Source of the DNA: Eledone cirrhosa
Lineage: Eukaryota
Direction of reading: 5' to 3'
Length of the DNA: 64,000 nt
NCBI GenBank assembly: GCA_964016885.1
Contig: OZ024743.1
Coordinates: forward strand, 198,524,001 to 198,588,000
This document shows positions 25,344 to 64,000 of the stretch, piece by piece (positions within the stretch are counted from its first letter, which is position 1; each line of letters starts with the position of its first letter). The position numbers and the translations under genes are program-made. Under the pieces are notes generated by a model. It was not told the origin of the DNA, ran no database searches, and worked only from the letters and a program-made list of their open reading frames with translations.

Positions 25344-25486
25344 TGTTTCTACTTTAGGCACAAGGCCAGCAATTAGCCAGTGCATTACTGGTACTTTATT
25401 TTATCGACCCCGTAAGGATGAAAGGCAAAGTCAACCTCGGCGGGATTTGAACTCAGATCGTAAAGGGACGTAACTATGCTGGAAAG
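25344..25486 (-). mobile_element. 5'-truncated SINE, short form, 8-bp TSD
   Basis: TSD caaataat at 25336-25343 and 25487-25494. Nearly identical to 1095-1240 and 15910-16053. Confidence 0.9.
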
Positions 25487-27461: not shown

Positions 27462-27540
27462 GCTCTGTATAGTCTTAAAGACTATTTCATGAAAACTTTC
27501 AGTGGAGATGGTCACGGTTGGAGTTCATCATCAGCAGAGC
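27462..27540 (-). ncRNA. Type I hammerhead ribozyme motif with intact core
   Basis: Minus strand: gctctg CTGATGA tgaa-(30 nt)-ttca t GAAA tagtct-tta-agacta TA cagagc. Stem I is 6 bp, stem III is long, the cleavage triplet is AUA, and stem II is imperfect. Confidence 0.7.
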
Positions 27541-27695
27541 TCAACAGATAAACAGGGCTCTCACAGAATTATAAGCCAAGAAGGAAATTCTAAAACTGGG
27601 TAGTTCACCATCATGCGTGAATATGAAAAACGCACATGAGGAAAAACGGGGCTAGTGACGTCAGGATGAAAATGAATGTTTGTTTACAAGAAATA

Positions 27696-27696
<1 letters not shown>

Positions 27697-27761
<65 letters not shown>

Positions 27762-27906: not shown

Positions 27907-30900
27907 TTGTGTGAGTTCGCACGAGCAAGTGTAAGTTTGAGCACAACTGTCTCTGCACGTGTATGTGTGTGTGTGTAATGCATGTCTGTATAAGTGTTTG
28001 GTAGACACATCCTTCTATGTTGTTAGCTTTGTTAATAAAACAAAATGACAGATAATGAAAATTTATTGACGCTTGAACTATGTGTTATCGCTACGTGTTA
28101 TTATGGTGCGTTATTTAAGTGTGTATCTGTTTATCTACCAATCTATAAGACTGCGTTTTGCAAAGGCTTCCAAGTTCATCTCCGCAAAATCTGCTTGATA
28201 CTTTCTCTTAAGAGGTTCACGACACAAAACAGAAAAGGTTAAATGAAATAGATTTGTATATAAGGAGGAACAAAACACTGAATACGTAATTTACATTAGC
28301 GTTGTTTGATGTTGTTGTTGTTGTTGGTGTTGGTGGTGGTGATGATGGTGGTGGTGGTCTTAGTGATAGTGGTGGTGGTGGTGGTGGTGCTGGTGTTGGT
28401 TTGTGGAGTGGTGTGACTGCCAATGCTGGAATTTATGTTAGCAATGGTGTTATTGGTGGCGGTTGTGGTGTTAGCGATGGATTTGGTGATGTGTTTGGTG
28501 TTATTGGTGATTGTTGTTGTTGTTGTGGTGGTGGTGGTGGTGGTGGTGTTGGTGATAGAGTTGGCGGTGTTGGTGTTGGTGTTGGTGGTGGTGGTGGCGT
28601 TGGTATTGGTGGTGGGGTTGCTCTTGGTGGTGGGGTTGGTGTTGGTGGTGGGGCTGGTGTTGGTGGTGGGGTTGGCGTTGGTGTTGGTGGTAGGGTTGGT
28701 GTTGGTGGTGTTGGTGGTGTTGGTGGTGGAGTTGGCGTTGGTGGTGGTGGTGGGGTTGGTATTGGTCGTGGCGTTGGTGTTGGTGGTGGGGTTGGTTGTG
28801 GTGGTGGGGGTCGGTTTTGGTGGGGAGGTTGGTGTTGGTGGTGGGGTTGGTGTTGGTGGTGGGGTTGGTGTTGGTGGTGGGGTTGGTGTTGGTGTTGGTG
28901 GTAGGGTTGGTGTTGGTGGTGTTGGTGGTGGGGTTGGTGTTGGTTGTGCTGGTGCTGGTGTTGGTGGTGCTGATGTTGGTGGTGGTGTTGGTGTTGGTGG
29001 TGTTGGTGTTGGTGTTGGTGATGGTGTTGGTGGTTTTGGTGTTGGTGGTGGTGTTGGTGGTGCTGGTGTTGGTGGTGTTGGTGTTGGCGTTGGTGGTGCT
29101 GGTGTTGGTGGTGTTGGTGTTGGTGTTGGTGTTGGCGTTGGTGGTGTTGGTGTTGGTGGTGTTGGTGTTGGTGGTGGTGGTGTTGGTGTTGGTGGTGTTG
29201 GTGTTGGTGGTGCTGGTGTTGGTGTTGGTGGTGCTGGTGCTGGTGTTGGTGATGCTGGTGCTGGTGTTGTTGGTGTTTATTGGTGGTGTTGGTGGTTGTG
29301 TTGTTGGTGTTGGTGGTGTTGGTGTTGGTGTTGGTGTTGTGGTGTTGGTGTTGGTGTTGTTGGTGGTGTTGGTGGTGCTGGTGTTGGTGTTGGTGGTGTT
29401 GGTGTTGGTGGTGCTGGTGTTGGTGTTGGTGGTGTTGGTGGTGCTGGTGTTGGTGCTGGTGGTTCTGGTGTAGGTGGTGTTGGTGTTGGTGGTGCTGTTG
29501 TTGGTGGTGTTGGTGTTGGTAGTGCTGGTTTTGGTGTTGCTGGTGGTGCTGGTGTTGGTGTGGTGGGGCTGGTGTTGGTGTTGGTGGTGCTGGTGTTGGT
29601 GTTGGTGGTGGGGTTGGTGTTGGTGGTGGGGTTGGTGTTAGTGGTGGTGGGGTAGGTATTGGTGGTGGGGTTGGTGTTGGTGGGGATGGTATGGTTGGTG
29701 GTGGGGTTGGTGTTGGTGGTGTGGTTGGTGTTGGTGGTGGGGTTGGTGTTGGTGGTGGGGTTGTTGTTGGTGGTGGTGGTGGGGGGATGTATTGGTGGGG
29801 GGAGGTAGATATTGGTGGGGGTTGATGTTGGTGGTGGGGTTGGTGTTGGTGGTGGGGTTGGTGTTAGTGGCGTGGTGGTGGGGTTGGTGTTGTGGGGTGG
29901 GGGTGGTATGGTTGGTATTGGTGTTGGTGCTGGTGTTGCTGCTGGTGTTGGTGTTGGTGGTGCTGGTGCTGGTGTTGGTGTTGGTGGTGTTGGTGCTGGT
30001 GGTGTTGGTGTCGGTGGTGCTGGTGTTCGGTGTTGGTGGTGCTAGTGTTGGTGTTGGGGGTGCTGGTGTTGGTGTTGGGGGTGCTGGTGTTGGTGGTGTT
30101 GGGGTTGGTGGTGCTGGTGTTGGTGTTGGTGGTGTTGGAGTTGGTGGTGCTGGTGTTGGTGGTGTTGGTGTTGGTGTTGGTGGTGCTGGTGTTGGTGTTG
30201 GTGGTGTTGGTGTTGGTGGTGCTGGTGTTGGTGGTGCTGGTGTTGGTGGTGCTGGTGTTGGTGGTGTTGGTGTTGGTGGTGTTTGTGTTGGTGGTGCTGG
30301 TGTTGGTGTTGGTGTTGGTGGTGTTGGTGGTGCTGGTGTTGGTGGTGCTGGTGTTGGTGGTGCTGGTGTTGGTGGTGCTGGTGTTGGTGGTGTTGGTGTT
30401 GGTGGTGTTTGTGTTGGTGGTGCTGGTGTTGGTGTTGGTGTTGGTGGTGTTGGTGGTGCTGGTGTTGGTGGTGCTGGTGTTGGTGGTGCTGGTGTTGGTG
30501 GTGTTGGTGTTGGTGGTGTTTGTGTTGGTGGTGCTGGTGTTGGTGGTGCTGGTGTTGGTGGTGTTGGTGTTGGTGGTGTTTGTGTTGGTGGTGCTGGTGT
30601 TGGTGTTGGTGTTGGTGGTGTTGGTGGTGCTGGTGTTGGTGGTGCTGGTGTTGGTGGTGTTGGTGTTGGTGGTGCTGGTGTTGGTGGTGCTGGTGTTGGT
30701 GGTGCTGGTGTTGGTGGTGTTGGTGTTGGTGGTGTTTGTGTTGGTGGTGCTGGTGTTGGTGTTGGTGGTGCTGGTGTTGGTGGTGCTGGTGTTGGTGTTG
30801 GTGTTGGTGGTGTTGGTGTTGGTGGTGCTGGTGTTGGTGTTGGTGTTGGTGGTGCTGGTGTTGGTGGCGCTGGTGTTGGTGTTGGTGTTGGTGGTGCTGG

Positions 30901-33900
30901 TGTTGGTGGCGCTGGTGTTGGTGTTGGTGTTGGTGGTGCTGGTGTTGGTGGTGCTGGTGCTGGTGTTGGTGTTGGTGGTGTTGGTGTTGGTGGTGCTGGT
31001 GTTGGTGGTGCTGGTGTTGGTGTTGGTGTTGGTGGTGCTGCTGTTGGTGGCGCTGGTGTTGGTGTTGGTGTTGGTGGTGCTGGTGTTGGTGGTGCTGGTG
31101 CTGGTGTTGGTGTTGGTGGTGTTGGTGTTGGTGGTGCTGGTGTTGGTGGCGCTGGTGTTGGTGGTGCTGGTGCTGGTGTTGGTGTTGGTGTTGGTGGTGT
31201 TGGTGTTGGTGGTGCTGGTGTTGGTGGCGCTGGTGTGGGTGTTGGTGTTGGTGGTGCTGGTGTTGGTGGTGCTGGTGCTGGTGTTGGTGTTGGTGGGGTT
31301 GGTGTTGGTGGTGGGGCTGGTGTTGGTGGTGGGGTTGGCGTTGGTGTTGGTGGTAGGGTTGGTGTTGGTGGTGTTGGTGGTGTTGGTGGTGGGGTTGGCG
31401 TTGGTGGTGGTGGTGGGGTTGGTATTGGTCGTGGCGTTGGTGTTGGTGGTGGGGTTGGTTATGGTGCTGGGGGTCGGTGTTGGTGGGGACGTTGGTGTTG
31501 GTGGTGGGGTTGGTGTTGGTGGTGGGGTTGGTGTTGGTGGTGGGGTTGGTGTTGGTGGTGGAGTTGGTATTGGTGATGGGGTTGCTGTTGGTGGTGTTGG
31601 TGTTGGTGGTGCTGGTGTTGCTGTTGGTGGTGTTGGTGTTGGTGGTGGGGTTGGTGTTGGTTGTGCTGGTGCTGGTGTTGGTGGTGCTGATGTTGGTGGT
31701 GGTGTTGGTGGTGCTGATGTTGCTGGTGGTGTTGGTGTTGGTGGTGTTGGTGTTGGTGCTGGTGTTGGTGGTTTTGGTGGTGGTGGTGGTGTTGGTGATG
31801 TTAGTGTTGGTGTTGGCGTTGGTGGTGCTGGTGTTGGGTGTGTTGGTGTTGGCGTTGGTGGTACTGGTGTTGGTGGTGTTGGTGTTGGTGTTGGTGTTGG
31901 CGTTGGTGGGGTAGGTATTGGTGGTGGGGTTGGTGTTGGTGGGGATGGTATGGTTGGTGGTGGGGTTGGTGTTGGTGGTGTGGTTGGTGTTGGTGGTAGG
32001 GTTGGTGTTGGTGGTGGGGTTGGTGTTGGTGGTGGTGGTGGTGGTGGTGGGGGGGGTATTGGTGGGGGAGGTAGATATTGGTGGGGGTTGATGTTGGTGG
32101 TGGGGTTGGTGTTGGTGGTGGGGTTGGTGTTAGTGGCGTGGTGGTGGCGTTGGTCTTGGTGGGGTGGGGGTGGTATGGTTGGTATTGGTGTTGGTGCTGG
32201 TGTTGCTGCTTGTGTTGGTGTTGGTGGTGCTGGTGCTGGTGTTGGTGCTGGTGGTATTGGTGTCGGTGGTGCTGGTGTTCGGTGTTGGTGGTGCTAGTGT
32301 TGGTGTTGGGGGTGCTGGTGTTGGTGGTGTTGGTGTTGGTGGTGTTGGTGTTGGTGGTGTTGGGGGTGCTGGTGTTGGTGGTGTTGGTGTTGGTGGTGTT
32401 GGGGTTGGTGGTGCTGGTGTTGGTGTTGGAGGTGCTGGTGTTGGTGGTGTTGGTGTTGGTGGTGTTGGTGTTGGTGGTGTTGGGGGTGCTGGTGTTGGTG
32501 GTGTTGGTGTTGGTGGTGTTGGGGTTGGTGGTGCTGGTGTTGGTGGTGTTGGTGTTGGTGTTGTTGGTGCTGGTGGTGTTGGTGTTGGTGTTGGTGTTGG
32601 TGGTGCTGGTGTTGGTGGTGCTGGTGTTGGTGTTGTTGGTGCTGGTGTTGGTGGTGCTGGTGTTGGTGGTGCTGGTGTTGGTGGTGTTGGTGTTGGTGGT
32701 GCTGGTTTTGGTGTTGCTGGTGGTGCTGGTGTTGGTGTGGTGGGGCTGGTGTTGGTGTTGGTGGTGCTGGTGTTGGTGTTGGTGGTGGGGTTGGTGTTGG
32801 TGGTGGGGTTGGTGTTAGTGGTGGTGGTGGGGTAGGTATTGGTGGTGGGGTTGGTGTTGGTGGGGATGGTATGGTTGGTGGTGGGGTTGGTGTTGGTGGT
32901 GTGGTTGGTGTTGGTGGTGGGGTTGGTGTTGGTGGTGGTGGTGGTGGGGGGGGGGGGTATTGGTGGGGGGAGGTAGATATTGGTGGGGGTTGATGTTGGT
33001 GGTGGGGTTGGTGTTGGTGGTGGGGTTGGTGTTAGTGGCGTGGTGGTGGGGTTGGTCTTGGTGGGGTGGGGTGGTATGGTTGGTATTGGTGTTGGTGCTG
33101 GTGTTGCTGCTGGTGTTGGTGTTGGTGGTGCTGGTGCTGGTGTTGGTGCTGGTGGTATTGGTGTCGGTGGTGCTGGTGTTCGGTGTTGGTGGTGCTAGTG
33201 TTGGTGTTGGGGGTGCTGGTGTTGGTGGTGTTGGTGTTGGTGGTGTTGGTGTTGGTGGTGTTGGGGGTGCTGGTGTTGGTGGTGTTGGTGTTGGTGGTGT
33301 TGGGGTTGGTGGTGCTGGTGTTGGTGGTGCTAGTGTTGGTGTTGGGGGTGCTGGTGTTGGTGGTGTTGGTGTTGGTGGTGTTGGGGGTGCTGGTGTTGGT
33401 GTTGGTGTTGGTGGTTCTGGTGTTGGTGTTGGTGGTGTTGGTGTTGGTGGTGTTAGTGTTGGTGTTGGTGGTGTTGGTGTTGGTGGTGTTGGTGCTGGTG
33501 CTGGTGTTGGTGGTGCTGGTGTTGGTGTTGGTGTTGGTGGTTCTGGTGTTGGTGTTGGTGGTGTTGGTGTTGGCGTTGGTGGTGTTGGTGTTGGTGGTTC
33601 TGGTGTTGGTGTTGGTGGTGTTGGTGTTGGTGGTGTTAGTGTTGGTGTTGGTGGTGTTGGTGTTGGTGGTGTTGGTGTTGGTGGTGTTGGTGTTGGTGTT
33701 GGTGGTGTTGATGTTGGTGTTGGTGGTGTTGGTGTTGGTGTTGCTGGTGTTGGTGGTGCTAGTGTTGGTGTTGGGGGTGCTGGTGTTGGTGGTGTTGGTG
33801 TTGGTGGTGTTGGGGTTGGTGGTGCTGGTGTTGGTGGTGTTGGTGTTGGTGGTGCTGGTGTTGGTGGTGCTAGTGTTGGTGTTGGGGGTGCTGGTGTTGG

Positions 33901-36900
33901 TGGTGTTGGTGTTGGTGGTGTTGGGGTTGGTGGTGCTGGTGTTGGTGGTGCTGGTGTTGGTGGTGCTGGTGTTGGTGTTGGTGTTGGTGGTTCTGGTGTT
34001 GGTGTTGGTGGTGTTGGTGTTGGCGTTGGTGGTGTTGGTGTTGGTGGTTCTGGTGTTGGTGTTGGTGGTGTTGGTGTTGGTGGTGTTAGTGTTGGTGGTG
34101 TTGGTGTTGGTGGTTCTGGTGTTGGTGTTGGTGGTGTTGGTGTTGGTGGTGTTGGTGTTGGTGTTGGTGGTGTTGATGTTGGTGTTGGTGGTGTTGGTGT
34201 TGGTGTTGCTGGTGTTGGTGGTGCTAGTGTTGGTGTTGGGGGTGCTGGTGTTGGTGGTGTTGGTGTTGGTGGTGTTGGGGTTGGTGGTGTTGGTGGTGTT
34301 GGTTGTGGTGTTGTTGGTGCTGGTGTTGGTGGTGCTGGTGTTGGTGTTGGTGTTGGTGGTGCTGGTGTTGGTGGTGTTGGTGTTGGTGGTGCTGGTGTTG
34401 GTGGTGTTGGTGTTGGTGTTGGTGTTGGTGGTGTTGGTGTTGGTGGTGTTGGTGGTGCTGGTGCTGGTGTTGGTGGTGTTGGTGCTGGTGTTGGTGTTGG
34501 TGGTGTTGGTGTTGGCGTTGGTGGTGTTGGTGTTGGTGGTTCTGGTGTTGGTGTTGGTGGTGTTGGTGTTGGCGTTGGTGGTGTTGGTGTTGGTGGTTCT
34601 GGTGTTGGTGTTGGTGGTGTTGGTGTTGGTGGTGTTAGTGTTGGTGTTGGTGGTGCTGGTGTTGGTGCTGGTGGTGCTGGTGTTGGTGGTGCTGGTGTTG
34701 GTGGTGTTGGTGCTGGTGGTGTTGGTGTTGTTGGTGCCGGTGTTGGTGTTGGTGGTGGTGGTGCCGGTGTTGGTGTTGGTGGTGTTGGTGTTGGTGGTGC
34801 TGGTGCTGGTGTTGGTGGTGCTGGTGTTAGTGTTGGTGGTGTTGGTGGTGTTGGTGTTGGTGGTGCTGCTGTTGGTGTTGGTGGTGCTGGTGTTGGTGGT
34901 GCTGCTGTTGGTGGTGCTGGTGTTGGTGTTGGTGGTGCTGCTGTTGGTGTTGGTGGTGCTGGTGTTGGTGTTGGTGGTGCTGGTGTTAGTGTTGGTGGTG
35001 CTGGTGTTAGTGTTGGTGGTGTTGGTGGTGTTGGTGTTGGTGGTGTTGGTGGTGCTGCTGTTGGTGGTGCTGGTGTTGGTGTTGGTGGTGCTGCTGTTGG
35101 TGTTGGTGGTGCTGGTGTTGGTGGTGCTGCTGTTGGTGGTGCTGGTGTTGGTGTTGGTGGTGCTGCTGTTGGTGTTGGTGGTGCTGGTGTTGGTGTTGGT
35201 GGTGCTGGTGTTGGTGCTGGTGTTGGTGTTGGTGGTGCTGGTGTTGGTGTTGGTGGTGTTGTTGGTGGTGTTGGTGTTGGTGGTGTTGGTGTTGGTGGTG
35301 TTGTTGGTGGTGTTGGTGTTGGTGGTGTTGGTGTTGGTGCTGGTGTTGGTGTTGGTGGTGTTGGTGTTGGTGTTGGTGGTGCTGGTGTTGGTGGTGCTGT
35401 TGGTGTTGGTGTTGGTGGTGCTGTTGTTGGTGTTGGTGGGGTTGGTGTTGGTGTTGGTGGTGCTGGTGTTGGTGTTGGTGTTGGTGGTGGTGGTGCTGGT
35501 GTTGGTGTTGGTGTTGGTGGTGTTGGTGTTGGTGTTGGTGGTGCTGGTGTTGGTGTTGGTGGTGCTGGTGTTGGTGTTGGTGGTGTTGGTGTTGGCGTTG
35601 GTGGGGTTGGTGTTGGTGTTGGTGGTGCAGGTGTTGGTGTTGGTGGTGCTGGTGTTGGTGTTGGTGGTGTTGGTGTTGGCGTTGGTGGGGTTGGTGTTGG
35701 TGTTGGTGGTGCTGGTGTTGGTGTTGGTGGTGCTGGTGTTGGTGGTGCTGGTGTTGGTGTTGGTGGTGTTGATGTTGGTGGTGCTGGTGTTGGTGTTGTT
35801 GGTGCTGGTGTTGGTGGTGCTGGTGTTCGTGTTGGTGGTGCTGTTGTTGGTGTTGTTGGTGGTGGTGCTGGTGTTGGTGTTGGTGGTGGTGGTGTTGGTG
35901 GTGTTGGTGTTGGTGTTGGTGGTGCTGGTGTTGGTGTTGGTGGTGTTGGTGTTGGTGGTGCTGGTGTTGGTGGTGCTGGTGTTGGTGTTGGTAGTGCTGG
36001 TGTTGGTGGTGGTGGTGCTGGTGTTGGTGGTGCTGGTGTTGGTGGTGTTGGTGTTGGTGGTGCTGGTGTTGGTGTTGGTGGTGCTGGTGTTGGTGTTGGT
36101 AGTGTTGGTGTTGGCGTTGGTGGTGTTGGTGTTGGTGTTGGTGGTGCTGGTGTTGGTTTTGGTGGTGCTGGTGTCGGTGTTGGTGGTGTTGGTGTTGGCG
36201 TTGGTGGGGTTGGTGTTGGTGTTGGTGGTGCTGGTGTTGGTGTTGGTGGTGCTGGTGTTGGTGGTGCTGGTGTTGGTGTTGGTGGTGTTGATGTTGGTGG
36301 TGCTGGTGTTGGTGTTGTTGGTGCTGGTGTTGGTGGTGCTGGTGTTCGTGTTGGTGGTGCTGTTGTTGGTGTTGTTGGTGGTGGTGCTGGTGTTGGTGTT
36401 GGTGGTGGTGGTGTTGGTGGTGTTGGTGTTGGTGTTGGTGGTGCTGGTGTTGGTGTTGGTGGTGTTGGTGTTGGTGGTGCTGGTGTTGGTGGTGCTGGTG
36501 TTGGTGTTGGTAGTGCTGGTGTTGGTGGTGGTGGTGCTGGTGTTGGTGGTGCTGGTGTTGGTGGTGTTGGTGTTGGTGGTGCTGGTGTTGGTGTTGGTGT
36601 TGGTGGTGTTGGTGTTGGTGGTGCTGGTGTTGGTGGTGCTGGTGTTGGTGTTGGTAGTGCTGGTGTTGGTGGTGGTGGTGCTGGTGTTGGTGGTGCTGGT
36701 GTTGGTGGTGTTGGTGTTGGTGGTGTTTGTGTTGGTGTTGGTGGTGTTGGTGTTGGTGGTGCTGGTGTTGGTGGTGCTAGTGTTGGTGTTGGGGGTGCTG
36801 GTGTTGGTGTTGGTGGTGTTGGTGTTGGTGGTGTTTGTGTTGGTGTTGGTGGTGTTGGTGTTGGTGGTGCTGGTGTTGGTGTTGGTGTTGGTGGTGTTGG

Positions 36901-38293
36901 TGTTGGTGGTGCTGGTGTTGGTGGTGCTGGTGTTGGTGGTGCTGGTGTTGGTGGCGCTGGTGTTGGTGTTGGTGTTGGTGGTGCTGGTGTTGGTGGTGCT
37001 GGTGCTGGTGTTGGTGTTGGTGGTGTTGGTGTTGGTGGTGCTGGTGTTGGTGTTGGTGTTGGTGGTGCTGGTGTTGGTGGTGCTGGTGCTGGTGTTGGTG
37101 GGGTTGGTGTTGGTGGTGGGGCTGGTGTTGGTGGTGGGGTTGGCGTTGGTGTTGGTGGTAGGGTTGGTGTTGGTGGTGTTGGTGGTGTTGGTGGTGGTGG
37201 GGTTGGTATTGGTCGTGGCGTTGGTGTTGGTGGTGGGGTTGGTTATGGTGCTGGGGGTCGGTGTTGGTGGGGACGTTGGTGTTGGTGGTGGGGTTGGTGT
37301 TGGTGGTGGGGTTGGTGTTGGTGGTGGGGTTGGTGTTGGTGGTGGAGTTGGTATTGGTGATGGGGTTGCTGTTGGTGGTGTTGGTGTTGGTGGTGCTGGT
37401 GTTGCTGTTGGTGGTGTTGGTGTTGGTGGTGGGGTTGGTGTTGGTTGTGCTGGTGCTGGTGTTGGTGGTGCTGATGTTGGTGGTGGTGTTGGTGGTGCTG
37501 ATGTTGCTGGTGGTGTTGGTGTTGGTGGTGTTGGTGTTGGTGCTGGTGCTGGTGGTTTTGGTGGTGGTGGTGGTGTTGGTGATGTTGGTGTTGGCGTTGG
37601 TGGTGCTGGTGTTGGGTGTGTTGGTGTTGGCGTTGGTGGTACTGGTGTTGGTGGTGTTGGTGTTGGTGTTGGTGTTGGCGTTGGTGGTGGTGGTGTTGGT
37701 GTTGGTGGTGTTGGTGTTGGTGTTGGTGGTGCTGATTGGTGGTGTTGGTGGTGTTGGTGTTGGTGTTGGTGGTGTTGGTTTTAGTGTTGCTGGTGGTGCT
37801 GGTGTTGGTGGTGTTGGTGTTGGTGTTGGTGGTGCTGGTGTTGTTGGTGTTGATTGGTGGTGTTGGTGGTGTTGGTGTTGGTGTTGGTGGTGTTGGTTTT
37901 AGTGTTGCTGGTGGTGCTGGTGTTGGTGGTGTTGGTGTTGGTGGTGCTGGTTTTGGTGTTGCTGGTGGTGCTGGTGTTGGTGTGGTGGGGCTGGTGTTGG
38001 TGTTGGTGGTGCTGGTGTTGGTGTTGGTGGTGGGGTTGGTGTTGGTGGTGGGGTTGGTGTTAGTGGTGGTGGTGGGGTAGGTATTGGTGGTGGGGTTGGT
38101 GTTGGTGGGGATGGTATGGTTGGTGGTGGGGTTGGTGTTGGTGGTGTGGTTGGTGTTGGTGGTGGGGTTGGTGTTGGTGGCGGGGTTGGTGTTGGTGGTG
38201 GTGGTGGGGGGGGGGGGTGTATTGGTGGGGGGAGGTAGATATTGGTGGGGGTTGATGTTGGTGGTGGGGTTGGTGTTGGTGGTGGGGTTGGTG

Positions 38294-53200: not shown

Positions 53201-56200
53201 TGTTGGTGGTGTTGATGTTGGTGGTGCTGGTGTTGGTGTTGTTGGTGCTGGTGTTGGTGGTGCTGGTGTTCGTGTTGGTGGTGCTGTTGTTGGTGTTGTT
53301 GGTGGTGGTGCTGGTGTTGGTGTTGGTGGTGGTGGTGTTGGTGTTGGTAGTGCTGGTGTTGGTGGTGCTGGTGGTGCTGGTGTTGGTGGTGCTGGTGTTG
53401 GTGTTGGTGGTGTTGGTGTTGGTGTTGGTGGTGTTGGTGTTGGTGGTGTTGGTGGTGCTGGTGTTGGTGTTGGTGTTGGTGGTGCTGGTGTTGGTGTTGG
53501 TGGTGTTGGTGTTGGTGGTGTTGGTGGTGCTGGTGTTGGTGTTGGTAGTGCTGGTGTTGGTGGTGATGGTGTTGGTGGTGCTGGTGTTGGTGGTGCTGGT
53601 GTTGGTGTTGGTAGTGCTGGTGTTGGTGGTGATGGTGCTGGTGTTGGTGGTGCTGGTGTTGGTGGTGCTGGTGTTGGTGTTGTTGGTGTTGGTGTTGGTG
53701 GTTTTGGTGTTGGTGTTGGTGGTGTTGGTGTTGGTGGTGTTGGTGGTGCTGGTGTTGGTGTTGGTGTTGGTGGTGTTGGTGTTGGTGGTGCTGGTGTTGG
53801 TGGTGCTGGTGTTGGTGTTGGTAGTGCTGGTGTTGGTGGTGATGGTGCTGGTGTTGGTGGTGCTGGTGTTGGTGGTGCTGGTGTTGGTGTTGTTGGTGTT
53901 GGTGTTGGTGGTTTTGGTGTTGGTGTTGGTGGTGTTGGTGTTGGTGGTGTTGGTGGTGCTGGTGTTGGTGTTGGTGTTGGTGGTGTTGGTGTTGGTGTTG
54001 GTGGTGTTGGTGGTGCTGGTGTTGGTGTTGGTGGTGTTGGTGTTGGTGTTGGTGGTGTTGGTGGTGCTGGTGTTGGTGGTGCTGGTGTTGGTGTTGGTGT
54101 TGGTGTTGGTGGTGCTGGTGTTGGTGTTGGTGGTGCTGGTGTTGGTGTTGGTGGTGTTGGTGTTGGCGTTGGTGGTGCTGGTGTTGGTGTTGTTGGTGCT
54201 GGTGTTGGTGGTGCTGGTGTTGGTGGTGCTGGTGTTCGTGTTGGTGGTGCTGTTGTTGGTGTTGGTGGTGGTGGTGCTGGTGTTGGTGTTGGTGGTGGTG
54301 GTGTTGGCGTTGGTGGTGTTGGTGTTGGCGTTGGTGGTGCTGGTGTTGCTGTTGGTGTTGGTGGTGGTGGTGCTGGTGTTGGTGTTGGTGGTGCTGGTGT
54401 TGGTGTTGGTGGTGTTGGTGTTGGCGTTGGTGGTGCTGGTGTTGGTGTTGTTGGTGCTGGTGTTGGTGGTGCTGGTGTTGGTGGTGCTGGTGTTCGTGTT
54501 GGTGGTGCTGTTGTTGGTGTTGGTGGTGGTGGTGCTGGTGTTGGTGTTGGTGGTGGTGGTGTTGGCGTTGGTGGTGTTGGTGTTGGTGTTGGTGGTGCTG
54601 GTGTTGGTGTTGGTGGTGCTGGTGTTGGTGTTGGTGGTGGTGGTGTTTGCGTTGGTGGTGTTGGTGTTGGTGTGGGTGGTGCTGGTGTTAGTGGTGCTGG
54701 TGGTGCTGGTGTTGGTGTTGGTGGTGGTGGTGTTTGCGTTGGTGGTGTTGGTGTTGGTGTTGGTGGTGCTGGTGTTAGTGGTGCTGGTGTTGGTGTTGCT
54801 GGTGTTCGTGTTGGTGTTGTTGGTGTTGGTGTTGGTGGTGTTAGTGTTGGTGTTGGTGTTGGTGGTGGTGCTGGTGTTGGTAGTGCTGGTATTGGCGTTG
54901 GTGGTGCTGGTGTTGGTGGTGTTGGTGGTGCTGGTGTTGGTGTTGGTAGTGCTGGTGTTGGTGGTGCTGGTGGTGCTGGTGTTGGTGGTGCTGGTGTTGG
55001 TGGTGCTGGTGTTGGTTTTGTTGGTGTTGGTGTTGGTGGTGCTGGTGTTGGTGGTGCTGGTGTTGGTGTTGGTGGTGTTGGTGTTGGTGGTGTTGGTGGT
55101 GCTGGTGTTGGTGTTGGTAGTGCTGGTGTTGGCGTTGGTGGTGTTGGTGTTGGTGGTGCTGGTGTTGGTGTTGGTGTTGGTGGTGCTGTTGTTGGTGTTG
55201 GTGTTGGTGGTGGTGGTGCTGCTGTTGGCGTTGGTGGTGCTGGTGTTGGTGTTGGTGGTGTTGGTGGTGCTGGTGTTGGTGTTGGTGGTGTTGGTGTTGG
55301 TGGTGCTGGTGTTGGTGGTGCTGGTGTTGGTGTTGGTGTTGGTGGTGCTGGTGTTGGTGGTGCTGGTGTTGGTGGTGCTGGTGTTGGTGTTGGTGGTGCT
55401 GGTGTTGGTGGTGCTGGTGTTGGTGTTGGTGGTGCTGGTGTTGGTGTTGGTAGTGCTGGTGTTGGTGCTGGTGTTGTTGTTGTTGGTGTTGGTGGTGTTG
55501 GTGGTGCTGGTGTTGACGTTGGTGGTGCTGGTGTTGGTGTTGGTGGTGTTGGTGTTGGTGGTGCTGGTGTTGGTGGTGGTGGTGTTGGTGGTGTTGGTGG
55601 TGTTGGTGCTGGTGGTGTTGGTGTTGGTGGTGTTGGCGTTGGTGGTGCTGGTGTTGGTGTTGGTGGTGTTGGTGGTGCTGGTGTTGGCGTTGGTGTTGGT
55701 GGTGTTGGTGTTGGTGGTGTTGGCGTTGGTGGTGTTGGTGTTGGTGGTGTTGGTGGTGCTGGTGTTGGTGTTGGTAGTGCTGGTGTTGGTGGTGATGGTG
55801 CTGGTGTTGGTGGTGCTGGTGTTGGCTTTGGTGGTGCTGGTGTTGGTGTTGGTAGTGCTGGTGTTGGTGGTGATGGTGCTGGTGTTGGTGGTGCTGGTGT
55901 TGGCTTAGGTGGTGCTGGTGTTGGTGTTGGTGGTGTTGGTGTTGGTGGTGCTGGTGTTGGTGTTGGTGTTGGTGGTGCTGGTGTTGGTGTTGGTAGTGCT
56001 GGTGTTGGCGTTGGTGGTGCTGGTGTTGGTGGTGCTGGTGTTGGTGGTGCTGGTGTTGGTGTTGGTAGTGCTGGTGTTGGTGGTGCTGGTGGTGCTGGTG
56101 TTGGTGGTGCTGGTGTTGGTGTTGGTGGTGTTGGTGTTGGTGTTGGTGGTGTTGGTGTTGGTGGTGTTGGTGGTGCTGGTGTTGGTGTTGGTGTTGGTGG

Positions 56201-59200
56201 TGCTGGTGTTGGTGTTGGTAGTGTTGGTGTTGGTGGTGTTGGTGGTGCTGGTGTTGGTGTTGGTAGTGCTGGTGTTGGTGGTGATGGTGTTGGTGGTGCT
56301 GGTGTTGGTGGTGCTGGTGTTGGTGTTAGTAGTGCTGGTGTTGGTGGTGATGGTGCTGGTGTTGGTGGTGCTGGTGTTGGTGGTGCTGGTGTTGGTGTTG
56401 TTGGTGTTGGTGTTGGTGGTTTTGGTGTTGGTGTTGGTGGTGTTGGTGTTGGTGGTGTTGGTGGTGCTGGTGTTGGTGTTGGTGTTGGTGGTGTTGGTGT
56501 TGGTGTTGGTGGTGTTGGTGGTGCTGGTGTTGGTGTTGGTGGTGTTGGTGTTGGTGTTGGTGGTGTTGGTGGTGCTGGTGTTGGTGGTGGTGGTGCTGCT
56601 GTTGGCGTTGGTGGTGCTGGTGTTGGTGTTGGTGGTGTTGGTGGTGCTGGTGTTGGTGTTGGTGGTGTTGGTGTTGGTGGTGCTGGTGTTGGTGGTGCTG
56701 GTGTTGGTGTTGGTGTTGGTGGTGCTGGTGTTGGTGGTGCTGGTGTTGGTGGTGCTGGTGTTGGTGTTGGTGGTGCTGGTGTTGGTGGTGCTGGTGTTGG
56801 TGTTGGTGGTGCTGGTGTTGGTGTTGGTAGTGCTGGTGTTGGTGCTGGTGTTGTTGTTGTTGGTGTTGGTGGTGTTGGTGGTGCTGGTGTTGACGTTGGT
56901 GGTGCTGGTGTTGGTGTTGGTGGTGTTGGTGTTGGTGGTGCTGGTGTTGGTGGTGGTGGTGTTGGTGGTGTTGGTGGTGTTGGTGCTGGTGGTGTTGGTG
57001 TTGGTGGTGTTGGCGTTGGTGGTGCTGGTGTTGGTGTTGGTGGTGTTGGTGGTGCTGGGGTTGGCGTTGGTGTTGGTGGTGTTGGTGTTGGTGGTGTTGG
57101 CGTTGGTGGTGTTGGTGTTGGTGGTGTTGGTGGTGCTGGTGTTGGTGTTGGTAGTGCTGGTGTTGGTGGTGATGGTGCTGGTGTTGGTGGTGCTGGTGTT
57201 GGCTTTGGTGGTGCTGGTGTTGGTGTTGGTAGTGCTGGTGTTGGTGGTGATGGTGCTGGTGTTGGTGGTGCTGGTGTTGGCTTAGGTGGTGCTGGTGTTG
57301 GTGTTGGTGGTGTTGGTGTTGGTGGTGCTGGTGTTGGTGTTGGTGTTGGTGGTGCTGGTGTTGGTGTTGGTAGTGCTGGTGTTGGCGTTGGTGGTGCTGG
57401 TGTTGGTGGTGCTGGTGTTGGTGGTGCTGGTGTTGGGGTTGGTAGTGCTGGTGTTGGTGGTGCTGGTGGTGCTGGTGTTGGTGGTGCTGGTGTTGGTGTT
57501 GGTGGTGTTGGTGTTGGTGTTGGTGGTGTTGGTGTTGGTGGTGTTGGTGGTGCTGGTGTTGGTGTTGGTGTTGGTGGTGCTGGTGTTGGTGTTGGTGGTG
57601 TTGGTGTTGGTGGTGTTGGTGGTGCTGGTGTTGGTGTTGGTAGTGCTGGTGTTGGTGGTGATGGTGTTGGTGGTGCTGGTGTTGGTGGTGCTGGTGTTGG
57701 TGTTGGTAGTGCTGGTGTTGGTGGTGATGGTGCTGGTGTTGGTGGTGCTGGTGTTGGTGGTGCTGGTGTTGGTGTTGTTGGTGTTGGTGTTGGTGGTTTT
57801 GGTGTTGGTGTTGGTGGTGTTGGTGTTGGTGGTGTTGGTGGTGCTGGTGTTGGTGTTGGTGTTGGTGGTGTTGGTGTTGGTGTTGGTGGTGTTGGTGGTG
57901 CTGGTGTTGGTGTTGGTGGTGTTGGTGTTGGTGTTGGTGGTGTTGGTGGTGCTGGTGTTGGTGGTGCTGGTGTTGGTGTTGGTGTTGGTGTTGGTGGTGC
58001 TGGTGTTGGTGTTGGTGGTGCTGGTGTTGGTGTTGGTGGTGTTGGTGTTGGCGTTGGTGGTGCTGGTGTTGGTGTTGGTGGTGTTGATGTTGGTGGTGCT
58101 GGTGTTGGTGTTGGTGGTGCTGGTGTTGGTGTTGGTGGTGTTGATGTTGGTGGTGCTGGTGTTGGTGTTGGTGGTGCTGGTGTTGGTGGTGCTGGTGTTC
58201 GTGTTGGTGGTGCTGTTGTTGGTGTTGGTGGTGGTGGTGCTGGTGTTGGTGTTGGTGGTGGTGGTGTTGGCGTTGGTGGTGTTGGTGTTGGCGTTGGTGG
58301 TGCTGGTGTTGCTGTTGGTGTTGGTGGTGGTGGTGCTGGTGTTGGTGTTGGTGGTGCTGGTGTTGGTGTTGGTGGTGTTGGTGTTGGCGTTGGTGGTGCT
58401 GGTGTTGGTGTTGTTGGTGCTGGTGTTGGTGGTGCTGGTGTTGGTGGTGCTGGTGTTCGTGTTGGTGGTGCTGTTGTTGGTGTTGGTGGTGGTGGTGCTG
58501 GTGTTGGTGTTGGTGGTGGTGGTGTTGGCGTTGGTGGTGTTAGTGTTGGTGTTGGTGGTGCTGGTGTTGGTGTTGGTGGTGCTGGTGTTGGTGTTGGTAG
58601 TGGTGGTGTTTGCGTTGGTGGTGTTGGTGTTGGTGTGGGTGGTGCTGGTGTTAGTGGTGCTGGTGGTGCTGGTGTTGGTGTTGGTGGTGGTGGTGTTTGC
58701 GTTGGTGGTGTTGGTGTTGGTGTTGGTGGTGCTGGTGTTAGTGGTGCTGGTGTTGGTGTTGTTGGTGTTGGTGTTGGTGGTGTTAGTGTTGGTGTTGGTG
58801 TTGGTGGTGGTGCTGGTGTTGGTAGTGCTGGTATTGGCGTTGGTGGTGCTGGTGTTGGTGGTGTTGGTGGTGCTGGTGTTGGTGTTGGTAGTGCTGGTGT
58901 TGGTGGTGCTGGTGGTGCTGGTGTTGGTGGTGCTGGTGTTGGTGGTGCTGGTGTTGGTTTTGTTGGTGTTGGTGTTGGTGGTGCTGGTGTTGGTGGTGCT
59001 GGTGTTGGTGTTGGTGGTGTTGGTGTTGGTGGTGTTGGTGGTGCTGGTGTTGGTGTTGGTAGTGCTGGTGTTGGCGTTGGTGGTGCTGGTGTTGGTGGTG
59101 CTGGTGTTGGTGGTGCTGGTGTTGGTGTTGGTAGTGCTGGTGTTGGTGGTGGTGGTGCTGGTGTTGGTGGTGCTGGTGTTGTTGGTGCTTGTGATGGTGT

Positions 59201-62200
59201 TGTTGGTGTTGGTGTTGGTGGTGCTGGTGTTGGTGTTGGTGGTGTTGGTGTTGGTGGTGTTGGTGGTGCTGGTGTTGGTGTTGGTAGTGCTGGTGTTGGC
59301 GTTGGTGGTGCTGGTGTTGGTGGTGCTGGTGTTGGTGGTGCTGGTGTTGGTGTTGGTAGTGCTGGTGTTGGCGTTGGTGGTGCTGGTGTTGGTGGTGCTG
59401 GTGTTGGTGGTGCTGGTGTTGGTGTTGTTGGTGTTGGTGGTGTTGGTGTTGGTGCTGGTGTTGGTGTTGGTGGTGCTGGTGTTGGTGGTGCTGGTGTTGG
59501 CGTTGGTGGTGCTGGTGTTGGTGGTGCTGGTGTTGGTGGTGCTGGTGTTGGTGTTGGTGGTGTTGGTGTTGGTGCTGGTGTTGGTGTTGGTGGTGCTGGT
59601 GTTGGTGGTGCTGGTGTTGGCGTTGGTGGTGCTGGTGTTGGTGGTGCTGGTGTTGGTGGTGCTGGTGTTGGTGGTGCTGGTGTTGGTGTTGGTGGTGGTG
59701 GTGCTGGTGTTGGTGGTGCTGGTGTTGGTGGTGCTGGTGTTGGTGTTGGTGTTGGTGGTGCTGATGTTGGTGTTGGTGTTGGTGTTGGTAGTGCTGGTGT
59801 TGGTGGTGCTGGTGTTGGTGGTGCTGGTGTTGGTGGTGCTGGTGTTGGTGGTGCTGATGCAGGTTTTGGTGTTGGTGGTGCTGGTGTTGGCGTTGGTGGT
59901 GTGGGTGTTGGTGTTGGTGTTGGTGGTGCTGGTGTTGGTGTTGGTGGTGCTGGTGTTGGTGGTGCTGGTGTTGGTGTTGGTGGTGCTGGTGTTGGTGTTG
60001 GTGTTGGTGGTGCTGTTGTTGGTGTTGGTGTTGGTGGTGGTGGTGCTGCTGTTGGCGTTGGTGGTGCTGGTGTTGGTGTTGGTGGTGTTGGTGGTGCTGG
60101 TGTTGGTGTTGGTGGTGTTGGTGTTGGTGGTGCTGGTGTTGGTGGTGCTGGTGTTGGTGTTGGTGTTGGTGGTGCTGGTGTTGGTGGTGCTGGTGTTGGT
60201 GGTGCTGGTGTTGGTGTTGGTGGTGCTGGTGTTGGTGGTGCTGGTGTTGGTGTTGGTGGTGCTGGTGTTGGTGGTGCTGGTGTTGGTGGTGCTGGTGTTG
60301 GTGTTGGTGGTGCTGGTGTTGGTGGTGCTGGTGTTGGTGTTGGTGTTGGTGGTGCTGATGTTGGTGTTGGTGTTGGTGTTGGTGGTGCTGGTGTTGGTGT
60401 TGGTAGTGTTGGTGGTGCTGTTGTTGGTGGTGCTGGTGTTGGTGCTGGTAGTGCTGGTGTTGGTGTTGGTAGTGCTGGTGTTGGTGGTGCTGGTGTTGGT
60501 GTTGGTAGTGCTGGTGTTGGTGGTGCTGGTGTTGGTGGTGCTGGTGTTGGTGGTGCTGGTGTTGGTGTTGGTGGTGCTGGTGTTGGTGTTGGTAGTGCTG
60601 GTGTTGGTGGTGCTGTTGTTGGTGGTGCTGGTGTTGGTGTTGGTGGTGTTGGTGTTGGTGGTGCTGGTGTTGGTGGTGCTGATGTTGGTGCTGGTGTTGT
60701 TGTTGGTGGTGTTGGTGTTGGTGGTGTTGGTGTTGGTGGTGCTGGTGTCGGTGGTGCTGGTGTTGGTGGTGCTGGTGATCGTGTTCGTGGTGTTGGTGTT
60801 GGTGTTGGTGGTGCTGGTGTTGGTGGCGCTGGTGTTGGTGTTGGTGTTGGTGGTGCTGTTGTTGGTGTTGGTGTTGGTGTTGGTGGTGCTGGTGTTGGTG
60901 GTGCTGGTGTTGGTGGTGCTGGTGTTGGTGTTGGTGTTGGTGGTGCTGGTGTTGGTGGTGCTGGTGTTGGTGGTGCTGGTGATCGTGTTCGTGGTGTTGG
61001 TGTTGGTGTTGGTGGTGTTAGTGTTGGTGTTGGTGTTGGTGTTGGTGGTGTCGGTGTTGGTGGTTTTGGTGTTGGTGTTGGTGGTGTTGGTGTTGGTGGT
61101 GCTGGTGTTGGTGGTGCTGGTGTTGGCGTTGGTGGTGTTGGTGTTTGTGTTGGTGGTGCTGGTGTTCGTGTTGGTGGTGTTGCCGTTGGTGGTGTTGGTG
61201 GTGTTGGTGTTGGTGGTGTTGGTGGTGGGGTTGGTGTTGGTGGTGCTGGTGCTGGTGTTGGTGGTGCTGGTGTTGGTGTTGGTGGTGCTGGTGTTGGTGT
61301 TGGTGGTGCTGGTGTTGGCGTTGGTGGTGCTGGTGTTGGTGTTGGTGTTGGTGGTGTTGGTGTTGGTGGTGTTGGTTTTTGTGATGGTGGTGTTGGTGTT
61401 GGTAGTGCTGGTGTTGGTGGTGCTGGTGTTGGCGTTGGTGGTGCTGGTGTTTGTGTTGGTGGTGTTGGCATTGGTGGTGTTGGTGGTGTTGGTGTTGGTG
61501 GTGTTGGTGGTGGGGTTGGTGTTGGTGCTGGTGTTGGTGTTGGTGGTGCTGGTGTTGGTGTTGGTGGTGCTGGTGTTGGTGTTGGTGGTGTTGGTGTTGG
61601 TGGTGTTGGTGTTGGTGGTGTTGGTGGTGTTGGTGTTGGTGTTGGTGTTGGTGGTGTTGGTGTTGGTGGTGTTGGTGCTGATTCAGGTGTTGGTGTTGGT
61701 GGTGCTGGTGCTGATGCAGGTGTTGGTGTTGGTGGTGCTGGTGTTGGTGGTGCTGGTGTTGGTGTTGGTGGTGCTGATGCAGGTTTTGTTGTTGGTGGTG
61801 CTGGTGTTGGCGTTGGTGGTGTTGGTGTTGGTGTTGGTGGTGCTGGTGTTGCTGTTGGTGGTGCTGGTGTTGGTGGTGCTGGTGTTGGTGTTGGTGGTGT
61901 TGGTGTTGGTATTGGTGGTGTTGGTGTTGGTGGTGTTGGTGTTGGTGTGGGTGTTGGAGGTGTTGGTGTTGGTGGTGTTGGTGTTGGTGGTGTTGGTGTT
62001 GGTGTTGGTGGTGTTGGTGTTGGTGGTGTTGGTGTTGGTGGTGTTGGTGTTGGTGGTGTTGGTGTTGGTGTTGCTGGTGCTGATGCAGGTGTTGGTGTTG
62101 GTGGTGCTGGTGTTGGTGGTGCTGGTGTTGGTGTTGGTGGTGTTGGTGTTGGTATTGGTGGTGTTGGTGTTGGTGGTGTTGGTGTTGGTGTGGGTGTTGG

Positions 62201-63928
62201 AGGTGTTGGTGTTGGTGGTGTTGGTGTTGGTGGTGTTGGTGTTGGTGTTGGTGGTGTTGGTGTTGGTGGTGTTGGTGTTGGTGGTGTTGGTGTTGGTGGT
62301 GTTGGTGTTGGTGTTGCTGGTGCTGATGCAGGTGTTGGTGTTGGTGGTGCTGGTGTTGGTGGTGCTGGTGTTGGCGTTGGTGGTGTTGGTGTTGGTGTTG
62401 GAGGTGTTGGTGTTGGTGGTGTTGGTGTTGGTGGTGTTGGTGTTGGTGTTGGTGGTGTTGGTGGTGTTGGTGTTGGTGGTGTTGATGTTGGTGTTGGTGG
62501 TGTTGGTGTTGGTGTTGCTGGTGCTGATGCAGGTGTTGCTGTTGGTGGCGCTGGTGTTGGTGGTGCTGGTGCTGGTGGTGTTGGTGTTGGTGGTGGTGGT
62601 GTCTGTGTTTGTGTTGGTGGTGTTGGTGTTGGTGGTGTTGGTGTTGGTGGTGTTGGTGTTGGTGTTGGTGTTGGTGGTGCTGGTGTTGGTGTTGGTGGTG
62701 TTGGTGGTGTTGGTGTTGGTGTTGGTGGTGTTGGTGGTGGTGGTGTTGGTGTTGGTGGTGCTGGTGTTGGTGGTGTTGGTGTTGGTGTTGGTGGTGCTGC
62801 TGTTGGTATTGGTGGTGCTGGTGTTGGTGGTGCTGGTGTTTGTGTTGGTGGTGCTGGTGTTGGTGTTGGTGGTGCCGGTGTTGGTGTTGGTGGTGCTGGT
62901 GTTGGTGTTGGTAGTGCTGGTGTTGGTGTTGGTGTTGGTGGTGCTGGTGTTGGTGTTGGTAGTGCTGGTGTTGGCGTTGGTGTTGGTGGTGTTGCTGTTG
63001 GTGGTGTTGGTGTTGGTGGTGCTGGTGTTGGTGTTGGTAGTGCTGGTGTTGGTGGTGCTGGTATTGGTGGTGTTCGTGTTGGTGTTGGTGGTGTTGGTGT
63101 TGGTGTTGGTTGTGCTGGTGTTGGTGGTGTTGGTGTTGGTGGTGTTGGTGTTGGTGGTGTTGGTGTTGGTGGTGTTGGTGTTGGTGGTGCTGGTGTTGGT
63201 GGTGTTGGTGTTGGTGGTGCTGGTGTTGGTGCTGGTGTTGGTGGTGCTGGTGTTGGTGGTGTTGGTGTTGGTGATGGTGATGGTGGTGTTGGTGTTGGTG
63301 TTGGTAGTGCTGGTGTTGGTGGTGCTGGTGTTGGTGGTGTTGGTGTTGGTGATGGTGGTATTGGTGTAGGTGTTGGTGGTGCTGGTGTTGGTTTTGGTGG
63401 TGTTGGTGTTGGTGGTGCTGGTGTTGGTGTTGGTGGCGTTGGTAGTGCTGGTGTTGGTGTTGGTGGTGCTGGTGTTGGTGTTGGTGGTGTTTGTGTTGGT
63501 GGTGCTGGTGTTGGTGTTGGTGGTGCTGGTGTTGGTGTTGGTGGTGCTGGTGTTGGTGTTAGTGGTGTTGGTGTTGGTGGTGCTGGTGTTGGTGTTGGTG
63601 GTGTTGGTGTTGGTGTTGCTGGTGTTGGTGTTGGTGTTGGTGGTGCTGGTGTTGGTGGTGCTGGTTTTGGTGGTGTTGGTGTTGGTGGTGTCAGTGGTGT
63701 TGGTGTTGCTGTTGGTGGTGTTGGTGTTGGTGGTGCTAGTGTTGATTGTTGGTGGTGTTGGTGTTGGTGTTGGTGGTGTTGGTGTTGGTGGTGTTGGTGT
63801 TGGTGTTGGTGGTCCTGGTGTTGGTGGTGGTGTTGGTGGTGTTGGTGTTGGTGGTGTTGGTGTTGGTGGAGTTGGTGTTGGTGGTGCTGGTGTTGGTGTT
63901 GTTGGTGGTGGTGTTGGTGTTGGTAGTG
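38294..63928 (-). CDS. Hypothetical giant Pro/Thr/Ala-rich (mucin PTS/extensin-like) reading frame; could only be an internal exon, and may be non-coding
   Basis: Track ORF 38294-61471. By my reading the frame stays open upstream to a TAA at 63929-63931. No signal peptide or vWD/CysD/SEA domain is seen, and NCA codons are intrinsically stop-poor. Confidence 0.25.
39027..63926 (+). CDS. Hypothetical Gly/Val/Ala-rich (elastin/silk-like) reading frame, antisense mirror of the above
   Basis: 8299-codon track ORF with a non-ATG start and out-of-register ends. GNT codons are intrinsically stop-poor. Confidence 0.12.
42130..45025. repeat. 1425-bp higher-order tandem duplication (2 units; boundaries approximate)
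   Basis: Marker gga-gct at 42273 and 43698, marker act at 42633 and 44058. Both pairs are 1425 bp apart. Confidence 0.85.
44760..52365. repeat. 3792-bp higher-order tandem duplication (2 units; boundaries approximate)
   Basis: Marker gcttgtgat at 45309 and 49101, marker ggcttag ending at 47418 and 51210. Both pairs are 3792 bp apart. Confidence 0.85.
55200..57950. repeat. 1377-bp higher-order tandem duplication (2 units; boundaries approximate)
   Basis: Marker gctgctgttggc at 55218 and 56595, marker ggcttag ending at 55908 and 57285. Confidence 0.85.
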
Positions 63929-64000
63929 TTAGGTGGTGTTGGTGTTGGTGGTGTTGGTGTTGGTGGTGCTGGTGTTGGTGTTGGTGGTGTTTGTGTTGGT

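What the first reader, a model, noticed from the sequence alone, without database searches (positions are those of the whole stretch)
28305..64000. >35-kb triplet-grammar array with ~25-kb open frames on both strands: giant mucin exon, elastomeric protein, or new satellite
Seen: one register is kept from 39,138 to ~63,746. Plus-strand GNT codons and minus-strand NCA codons share the same wobble base, so both strands stay open (GVGGAGVG and PTPAPPTP). The order is constrained: GCT and GTT are nearly always separated by GGT. There is no TE insertion despite dense TEs next door. Established: gel-forming mucins have multi-kb single PTS exons with VNTRs. Against coding: stops need two hits from these codons, slippage preserves triplets, non-synonymous variants (agt, cgt, tgc, tct, ttt) are common, and no flanking domain exons are visible. 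Either outcome is unusual.
Basis: partly seen in the sequence, partly recalled or inferred. Interest (0 to 1): 0.75.

Follow-up and report, generated by a model that had tools for sequence, protein, structure and literature searches.

The report
Giant triplet satellite mimicking a gene
This 37-kb stretch built almost entirely from three 3-letter DNA words is the largest of at least 20 similar arrays found in this genome and is most likely non-coding repeat DNA, whose 8,000-codon open frames are likely a by-product of words that cannot become stop signals by a single mutation.

Summary
In detail: a GGT/GTT/GCT array runs from 28,301 to about 1.6 kb past the window end (37.3 kb). Its register is unbroken from 39,138 to 63,744, with open frames of 8,316 aa (+) and 8,544 aa (-). 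It is most likely a non-coding complex triplet satellite. Once the register is kept, both frames stay open in 44% of random-substitution trials. Independent substitutions show no third-position excess (34:25 first:third; control arrays 354:195). No mucin or chitin-binding exon was found nearby, and the + frame has no Met. The array grew by near-identical 0.5-3.8 kb duplications. At least 20 arrays of the same G/T triplet class occur on 9 contigs. Two large ones share the word order yet are frame-broken, and one carries an LTR element. Unexplained residue: this core and a second 26.6-kb array have no frameshift over 21-25 kb, which few slippery G-runs and recent growth explain only in part. Expression and spanning reads could not be tested. 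The scan noted a similar satellite mimicking a mucin exon on other DNA of this genome (e1-10318175).

The parts
28301..64000 (.). Complex GGT/GTT/GCT triplet array; continues ~1,560 bases beyond the window (37.3 kb in all)
28301..39137 (.). Degenerate left zone: 11% non-canonical triplets, 13.5 G-runs (4 or more) per kb, 38 register breaks, many being copies of one block (marker at 29,804; 32,070; 32,972; 38,234; 38,954)
39138..63744 (.). In-register core: 5.4% non-canonical triplets, 0.45 G-runs per kb, no register break
38976..63926 (+). Open frame, 8,316 aa, Gly/Val/Ala, no Met; both ends run into shifted registers (Cys/Trp, Val/Leu)
38294..63928 (-). Open frame, 8,544 aa, Pro/Thr/Ala, single Met at residue 820; both ends run into shifted registers
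44759..52374 (.). Tandem duplication, period 3,792 (3 mismatches in 3,824)
42138..45025 (.). Tandem duplication, period 1,425 (1 mismatch in 1,463)
55199..57966 (.). Tandem duplication, period 1,377 (4 mismatches in 1,391)
34732..35900 (.). Block repeated 17.4 kb away at 52,169-53,343 (1 mismatch in 1,186 aligned bases)
63449..64000 (.). Right edge, period-500 duplication that copies two frameshifts (63,744 and 63,931; second copies lie past the window end)

Best explanation
This is most likely a non-coding complex triplet satellite that likely grew from a GGT/GTT microsatellite by repeated in-register duplication, and its long open frames are likely a by-product of its three-word alphabet. 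Shown: the working units are GGTGTT, GGTGGTGTT and GGTGGTGCT; the core holds near-identical 0.5-3.8 kb duplications; and GGT, GTT, GCT and their P/T/A-frame complements cannot reach a stop by one substitution. Inferred: misaligned pairing between matching 6-15-base words copies or deletes whole words, which keeps both register and word order. The recently amplified core pushed an older, G-run-rich, frameshifted zone to the edge. Speculative: two-tier G-quadruplexes on the G-rich strand could promote the misalignment.
For: (1) Random-substitution null on the real core (465 changes, 300 trials): both frames open in 44%. (2) Independent substitution clusters, first:third position, are 34:25, 54:42, 69:58 and 84:80 at four context lengths; control arrays give 354:195, Fisher p=0.32. 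A G/V or P/T protein predicts third >> first. (3) Three exact patterns hit 20 loci on 9 contigs. Arrays at C2:84.5 Mb (19.7 kb, 29 breaks, longest register 2.1 kb) and C2:120.2 Mb (15.7 kb, 12 breaks) keep the GGT-spacer rule although frame-broken; the latter holds three 99.9% identical copies of a 2.3-kb LTR element amplified with the array. (4) A second 26.6-kb array at C2:105.1 Mb has 7,500-8,900-aa frames on both strands but shares no variant in a 7-triplet context and no more long words than a Markov null. (5) Of 306 flank ORFs scanned, only transposon-type domains passed Pfam cut-offs; none of 72 VWD or 110 CBM_14 matches lies within 50 Mb on this contig. (6) (GGT)3 occurs 6 times and (GGT)4 58 times, against single-triplet slippage. 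(7) 20 of 41 breaks sit at G-runs, which are 30-fold rarer in the core. (8) The whole-array frameshift:substitution ratio, 18:212, matches controls at 24:392 (p=0.32) and dispersed repeats at 0.08-0.10.
Against: The two break-free cores hold 0 frameshifts against 145 substitution clusters (p=0.001 vs 24:392; this core alone p=0.037); the cores were defined after the fact, so these p values are too small, but the clustering is not fully explained. Against only the two large broken arrays this core has somewhat more third-position change (34:25 vs 230:87, p=0.03). A neutral growth simulation gave a break-free share of 66% or more in only 7-10% of runs at the repeat-derived indel ratio (20-57% at lower ratios); it timed out after 6 of 18 settings and overshot the real variant load. 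Exons under 62-85 codons and low-complexity exons were not scanned. The control arrays are assumed, not shown, to be non-coding.
Confidence: 0.85

Rival explanations
1. The core is a giant exon for a Pro/Thr-rich mucin-like protein (- strand), with small flanking exons not yet found.
For: 8,544-aa frame, 54% Pro and 31% Thr; no frameshift in 24.6 kb; a second array keeps register for 21 kb; mucin PTS exons are variable tandem repeats, e.g. the 8,793-bp MUC2 central exon (PMC6269512, passages read).
Against: No third-position excess; Pro-to-Leu/Gln/Arg type changes are as common as silent ones; no VWD or CBM_14 exon near; no polypyrimidine acceptor matched on the - strand at 63.5-66.5 kb and no GTRAG donor in the array on that strand; third-position entropy 0.29 bits against 1.83-1.84 in two long CBM_14-bearing ORFs of this genome (weak, because young VNTR exons can be homogeneous).
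Confidence: 0.07
2. The + strand encodes an elastin- or silk-like Gly/Val/Ala structural protein.
For: 8,316-aa frame with GVGGAGVG repeats; resemblance to elastomeric proteins is recalled, not tested.
Against: No Met in the frame; no acceptor-like site matched at 27.0-39.5 kb; no Pfam match for a 500-aa sample; no wobble bias; the same words occur in frame-broken arrays.
Confidence: 0.03
3. A shorter real array was inflated by assembly error.
For: Several duplications are over 99.7% identical; no spanning read was seen.
Against: Duplicates differ by 1-4 bases and are nested at several scales; about half of the array lies outside exact blocks of 400 bp or more; there are no N bases; a contig of run X1 matches the left flank without a difference up to 28,298, though X1 may be the assembly's own sample.
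Confidence: 0.05

Closest known systems
Long simple-sequence (micro)satellite arrays with eroded ends, e.g. AAC/AC arrays of Rumex acetosa (PMC3547029, passages read) and SSR-derived 'clouds' (PMC7027126, abstract read)
   Same: Triplet motifs (AAC/ACC family), long arrays, more substitution at the ends, cryptically simple flanks
   Different: Three interleaved words with a fixed order rather than one motif; 37 kb at one euchromatic-looking locus; nested kb-scale duplications
Expanded TGG repeats at human 14q32.2 and TGG/TTG G-quadruplex aptamers such as AS1411 (both as described in PMC7102960, passages read)
   Same: G-rich strand made of GG tracts with short loops (T, TGTT, TGCT); prone to homology-driven rearrangement
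   Different: Far longer here; quadruplex folding was not tested for this sequence
Gel-forming mucin central PTS exons, MUC2/MUC6 (PMC6269512, passages read)
   Same: A long open Pro/Thr-rich frame with tandem gain and loss of units
   Different: Mucin exons have 23-aa or longer units and lie in genes with VWD, CysD and CK domains; none was found here, and the open frame is explained by the alphabet

Membership tests
Gel-forming / chitin-binding mucin gene | Long Pro/Thr/Ser-rich open frame | tested here: met
   - strand frame 8,544 aa, P 4,616, T 2,619, S 87
Gel-forming / chitin-binding mucin gene | Flanking VWD, CysD, CK or CBM_14 exons | tested here: not met
   0 of 72 VWD and 0 of 110 CBM_14 matches (150 of 266 candidates scored) within 50 Mb on C4; 306 flank ORFs gave only transposon domains over cut-off. 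Exons under 62-85 codons not covered.
Gel-forming / chitin-binding mucin gene | Start codon with signal peptide, or splice sites bounding the exon | tested here: inconclusive
   Single internal Met (-), none (+); simple acceptor/donor patterns found nothing; a distant small exon cannot be excluded
Protein-coding repeat (any) | Excess of silent third-position change | tested here: not met
   first:third 34:25 to 84:80 in the core; controls 354:195
Protein-coding repeat (any) | Spliced, translated transcript | not testable with these tools
   No RNA holder listed
Complex simple-sequence satellite | Multi-kb head-to-tail array of short related motifs | tested here: met
   GGT 6,552, GTT 3,749, GCT 1,202 of 12,450 tokens
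Complex simple-sequence satellite | Growth by local and higher-order duplication, homogeneous core and eroded ends | tested here: met
Complex simple-sequence satellite | Further arrays of the class in the genome, indifferent to frame | tested here: met
   20 loci, 19 fetched; large frame-broken members; one with an LTR element
Complex simple-sequence satellite | Length polymorphism between individuals; heterochromatin marks | not testable with these tools
   No long reads or chromatin data were offered
Single-origin satellite family (shared ancestral monomer) | Shared diagnostic variants or flanks between arrays | tested here: not met
   C4 and C2:105 arrays share 0 variants in 7-triplet context; the C4 array's 600-bp flanks matched none of the other flanks in a set of 33

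The most novel reading that the evidence does not exclude
The two GCT-rich giant arrays (this one and C2:105.1 Mb) are held in register by selection because they are transcribed and translated, as satellite-born giant Pro/Thr- or Thr/Asn-rich glycoprotein exons or by non-AUG repeat translation, which would be mucin-like genes arising independently from triplet satellites.
Probability: 0.07. Interest if true: 0.8.

Novelty: new member of a known kind. Interest (0 to 1): 0.25.

Why it matters
As non-coding DNA it is a clean warning for annotation: an 8,000-codon, mucin-looking frame on both strands can arise with no selection on protein. It also gives a natural series of 19 fetched arrays of different apparent age in one genome that converge on the same word order without shared variants, useful for studying how microsatellites become satellites. 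If the register were kept by translation, it would be a case of giant genes born from simple repeats. Three full-text searches showed no description of such arrays in octopods; subscription journals and supplements were not covered.

Tried and rejected
Sequencing-run search: no RNA holder listed; no evidence either way. Laying runs on the flank: a relative (X4) shares the left flank at roughly 91-96% identity up to 28,296, but the tool skipped the repeat, so presence of the array in the relative is unknown. BLAST self-comparison of the arrays returned no alignments; replaced by exact-diagonal blocks and context clustering. Growth simulation timed out with 6 of 18 settings done and too high a variant load; only a rough guide. 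Protein Atlas look-up for a taxon hint gave no result; 'octopod' rests on earlier unreviewed notes and recall, not on a test of mine. A search for the Triticeae GAA satellite as a precedent found nothing usable; recalled only, not relied on. PMC13282606 (Octopus vulgaris repeat annotation; passages read) says nothing on such arrays in its main text; its supplements were not read. Rejected: one dispersed satellite family or a TE-borne seed (no shared variants or flanks); single-triplet slippage as the main driver ((GGT)3 much rarer than (GGT)4); lack of TE insertions as a sign of function (the array has no TTAA or AAAA and 16-fold less TA than the flank, and a sister array does carry an LTR element); the Thr/Asn frame as the coding frame here (5 stops in the core).

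Full report
What is there. The window is G000:C4:198,524,001-198,588,000 of a 3.0-Gb genome. From 28,301 the + strand is almost only G and T. Neighbouring stretches show the array ends about 1,560 bases past the window, 37.3 kb in all, fading into ordinary repeat-rich DNA. A triplet parse gives GGT 6,552, GTT 3,749 and GCT 1,202 of 12,450 tokens and 42 register breaks: 38 left of 39,140, none between 39,138 and 63,743, and 4 at the right edge. The frames are + 38,976-63,926 (8,316 aa, no Met) and - 38,294-63,928 (8,544 aa, one Met at residue 820); both run into shifted registers at their ends. The word order is as reported: GTT-GCT 21 and GCT-GTT 52 against 263 expected each.

Are the open frames more than chance? 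Given the register, no. Placing the observed 465 substitutions at random on the idealised core left the G/V frame open in 86%, the P/T frame in 51% and both in 44% of 300 trials. The other four frames carry 5, 5, 41 and 181 stops. A second array at C2:105.084-105.110 Mb (26.6 kb) has frames of 7,476-8,895 aa on both strands, some running straight across register shifts.

Is there selection on a protein? Variants were collapsed into independent clusters by shared context. In the core, first:third position counts are 34:25, 54:42, 69:58 and 84:80 at context lengths 6, 10, 15 and 25 triplets; the C2:105 core gives 38:19 to 84:68. The third position is silent in both the G/V and P/T frames, so coding predicts the reverse. 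Fourteen segments from 12 other regions give 354:195; the core does not differ (p=0.32), although against the two largest broken arrays alone it has slightly more third-position change (p=0.03). Third-position entropy is 0.18-0.29 bits against 1.83-1.84 in two long CBM_14-bearing ORFs of the same genome; this control is weak because young repeat exons can be homogeneous and those ORFs are not shown to be expressed.

Is there a gene around it? I scanned 306 non-low-complexity ORFs in the C4 flanks (62 aa or more within about 48 kb left and 38 kb right; 85 aa or more out to about 108 kb left and 198 kb right). Only reverse-transcriptase, zf-RVT, DDE and transposase-type HTH domains passed Pfam cut-offs; one C2H2 finger and a few DUF/TMEM192 hits were below cut-off. 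The 84 ORFs around C2:105 gave transposon domains plus one coiled-coil hit beside an RT frame. None of 72 VWD matches lies between 144.7 and 320.0 Mb on C4, and the nearest of 110 CBM_14 matches on C4 is at 326 Mb (150 of 266 candidates scored). Simple splice patterns found no acceptor at either relevant end and no GTRAG donor on the - strand. Small exons are not excluded, and no RNA run was available.

How it grew. Exact-diagonal blocks show tandem duplications of 3,792, 1,425, 1,377 and 500 bases and a block repeated 17.4 kb away, with 0-4 mismatches each; 52% of the array lies in such blocks. The commonest words are GGTGTT, GGTGGTGCT and GGTGGTGTT. (GGT)3 occurs 6 times but (GGT)4 58 times, which fits a point change inside GGT-GGT-GYT-GGT followed by word-level copying, not single-triplet slippage (inference). 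Homology-guided duplication keeps neighbour pairs and register by construction, which accounts for the 'grammar' (inference). The left zone has twice the variant load (11% vs 5.4%), 30 times the G-run density, and 20 of 41 breaks lie at G-runs; one frameshifted block is present in five copies. Higher substitution at array ends and cryptically simple flanks are described for microsatellites (PMC3547029, passages). The G-rich strand is GG tracts with T, TGTT or TGCT loops, like TGG/TTG sequences known to fold into quadruplexes (PMC7102960, passages); folding was not tested here.

It is one of a class. Three exact patterns hit 20 loci on 9 contigs (lower bounds); 19 were fetched. C2:84.5 Mb (19.7 kb) has 29 breaks and a longest register of 2.1 kb; C2:120.2 Mb has segments of 15.7, 5.6 and 5.6 kb with 12, 9 and 7 breaks. 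Both keep the GGT-spacer rule (207 of 917 and 311 of 962 expected adjacencies). The latter contains three 99.9% identical copies of a 2.3-kb element with 230-bp terminal repeats and an integrase frame, so arrays of this class take TE insertions and duplicate them. Five small members (1.0-2.8 kb) have no internal break. The C4 and C2:105 arrays share no variant in a 7-triplet context and no more 60-90-mers than Markov nulls, and the C4 flanks match no other array's flanks, so independent origins are more likely than one spreading family.

What is left over. Over whole arrays the frameshift:substitution ratio is ordinary (18:212 here, 3:110 at C2:105, 24:392 in controls; p=0.32 and 0.23; dispersed repeats 0.08-0.10). 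But both GCT-rich cores have none (0:76 and 0:69; joint p=0.001, inflated because cores are defined by lacking breaks). They have about 3 variant clusters per kb against 7-9 in the broken arrays, so they look younger, and this core lacks G-runs. A partial simulation gave 7-57% for so long a clean stretch depending on the indel ratio. This window was also chosen as an extreme. I leave about 10% for a translated reading.

Comparison and verdict. It works like a long simple-sequence satellite and meets the tested features of that class. It resembles a mucin central exon only in composition; MUC2's is 8,793 bp of 69-bp units in a gene with VWD, CysD and CK domains (PMC6269512, passages), and those features were not found. 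Searches found no paper describing these arrays in octopods. The taxon label comes from earlier unreviewed notes, one of which reached the same conclusion for a different, 21-base satellite. Verdict: real, most likely non-coding, a new member of a known kind; interest 0.25.

Noticed in passing
G000:C2:120,191,200-120,204,300 (L068-L069): Three 99.9% identical copies of a 2.3-kb LTR element (230-bp terminal repeats, 502-aa frame with integrase domains) inside a GGT/GTT array, apparently amplified with it.
   Followed up: partly
G000:C2:105,083,600-105,110,300 (L034-L037): Second giant GGT/GTT/GCT array, 26.6 kb, with duplications of 4,707 and 2,931 bases; its Thr/Asn/Ser frame is open for 8,895 aa across the whole array, without Met.
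   Followed up: yes
window 27,202-27,755: Repeat with very high depth in run X1 but near background in the relative X4, suggesting a young lineage-specific element just left of the array.
   Followed up: no
window 25,338-25,490: Extremely high-copy dispersed repeat (SINE-like, label recalled) in all four runs laid; similar copies lie 0.5-1 kb right of the array.
   Followed up: no
window 14,600-15,320: Fragment that reads like a LINE reverse-transcriptase region (recalled; no Pfam hit).
   Followed up: no
L052-L053 (C13:16.361 Mb) and L054 (C3:220.853 Mb): Long ORFs of 1,800 aa (one CBM_14 then an Asn/Ser/Thr-rich stretch) and 1,958 aa (tandem Cys-rich chitin-binding-like units); plausible real peritrophin- or mucin-like exons.
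   Followed up: partly
G000:C2:167.39-167.49 Mb: Four near-equal VWD exon pairs spaced about 33-36 kb apart, a likely recent tandem gene cluster.
   Followed up: no
L012:6364-6696 (+); L020-L021 (about 185-190 kb right of the array): A single sub-cut-off C2H2 finger ORF; a smaller degenerate G/T-rich triplet tract of about 6 kb.
   Followed up: no
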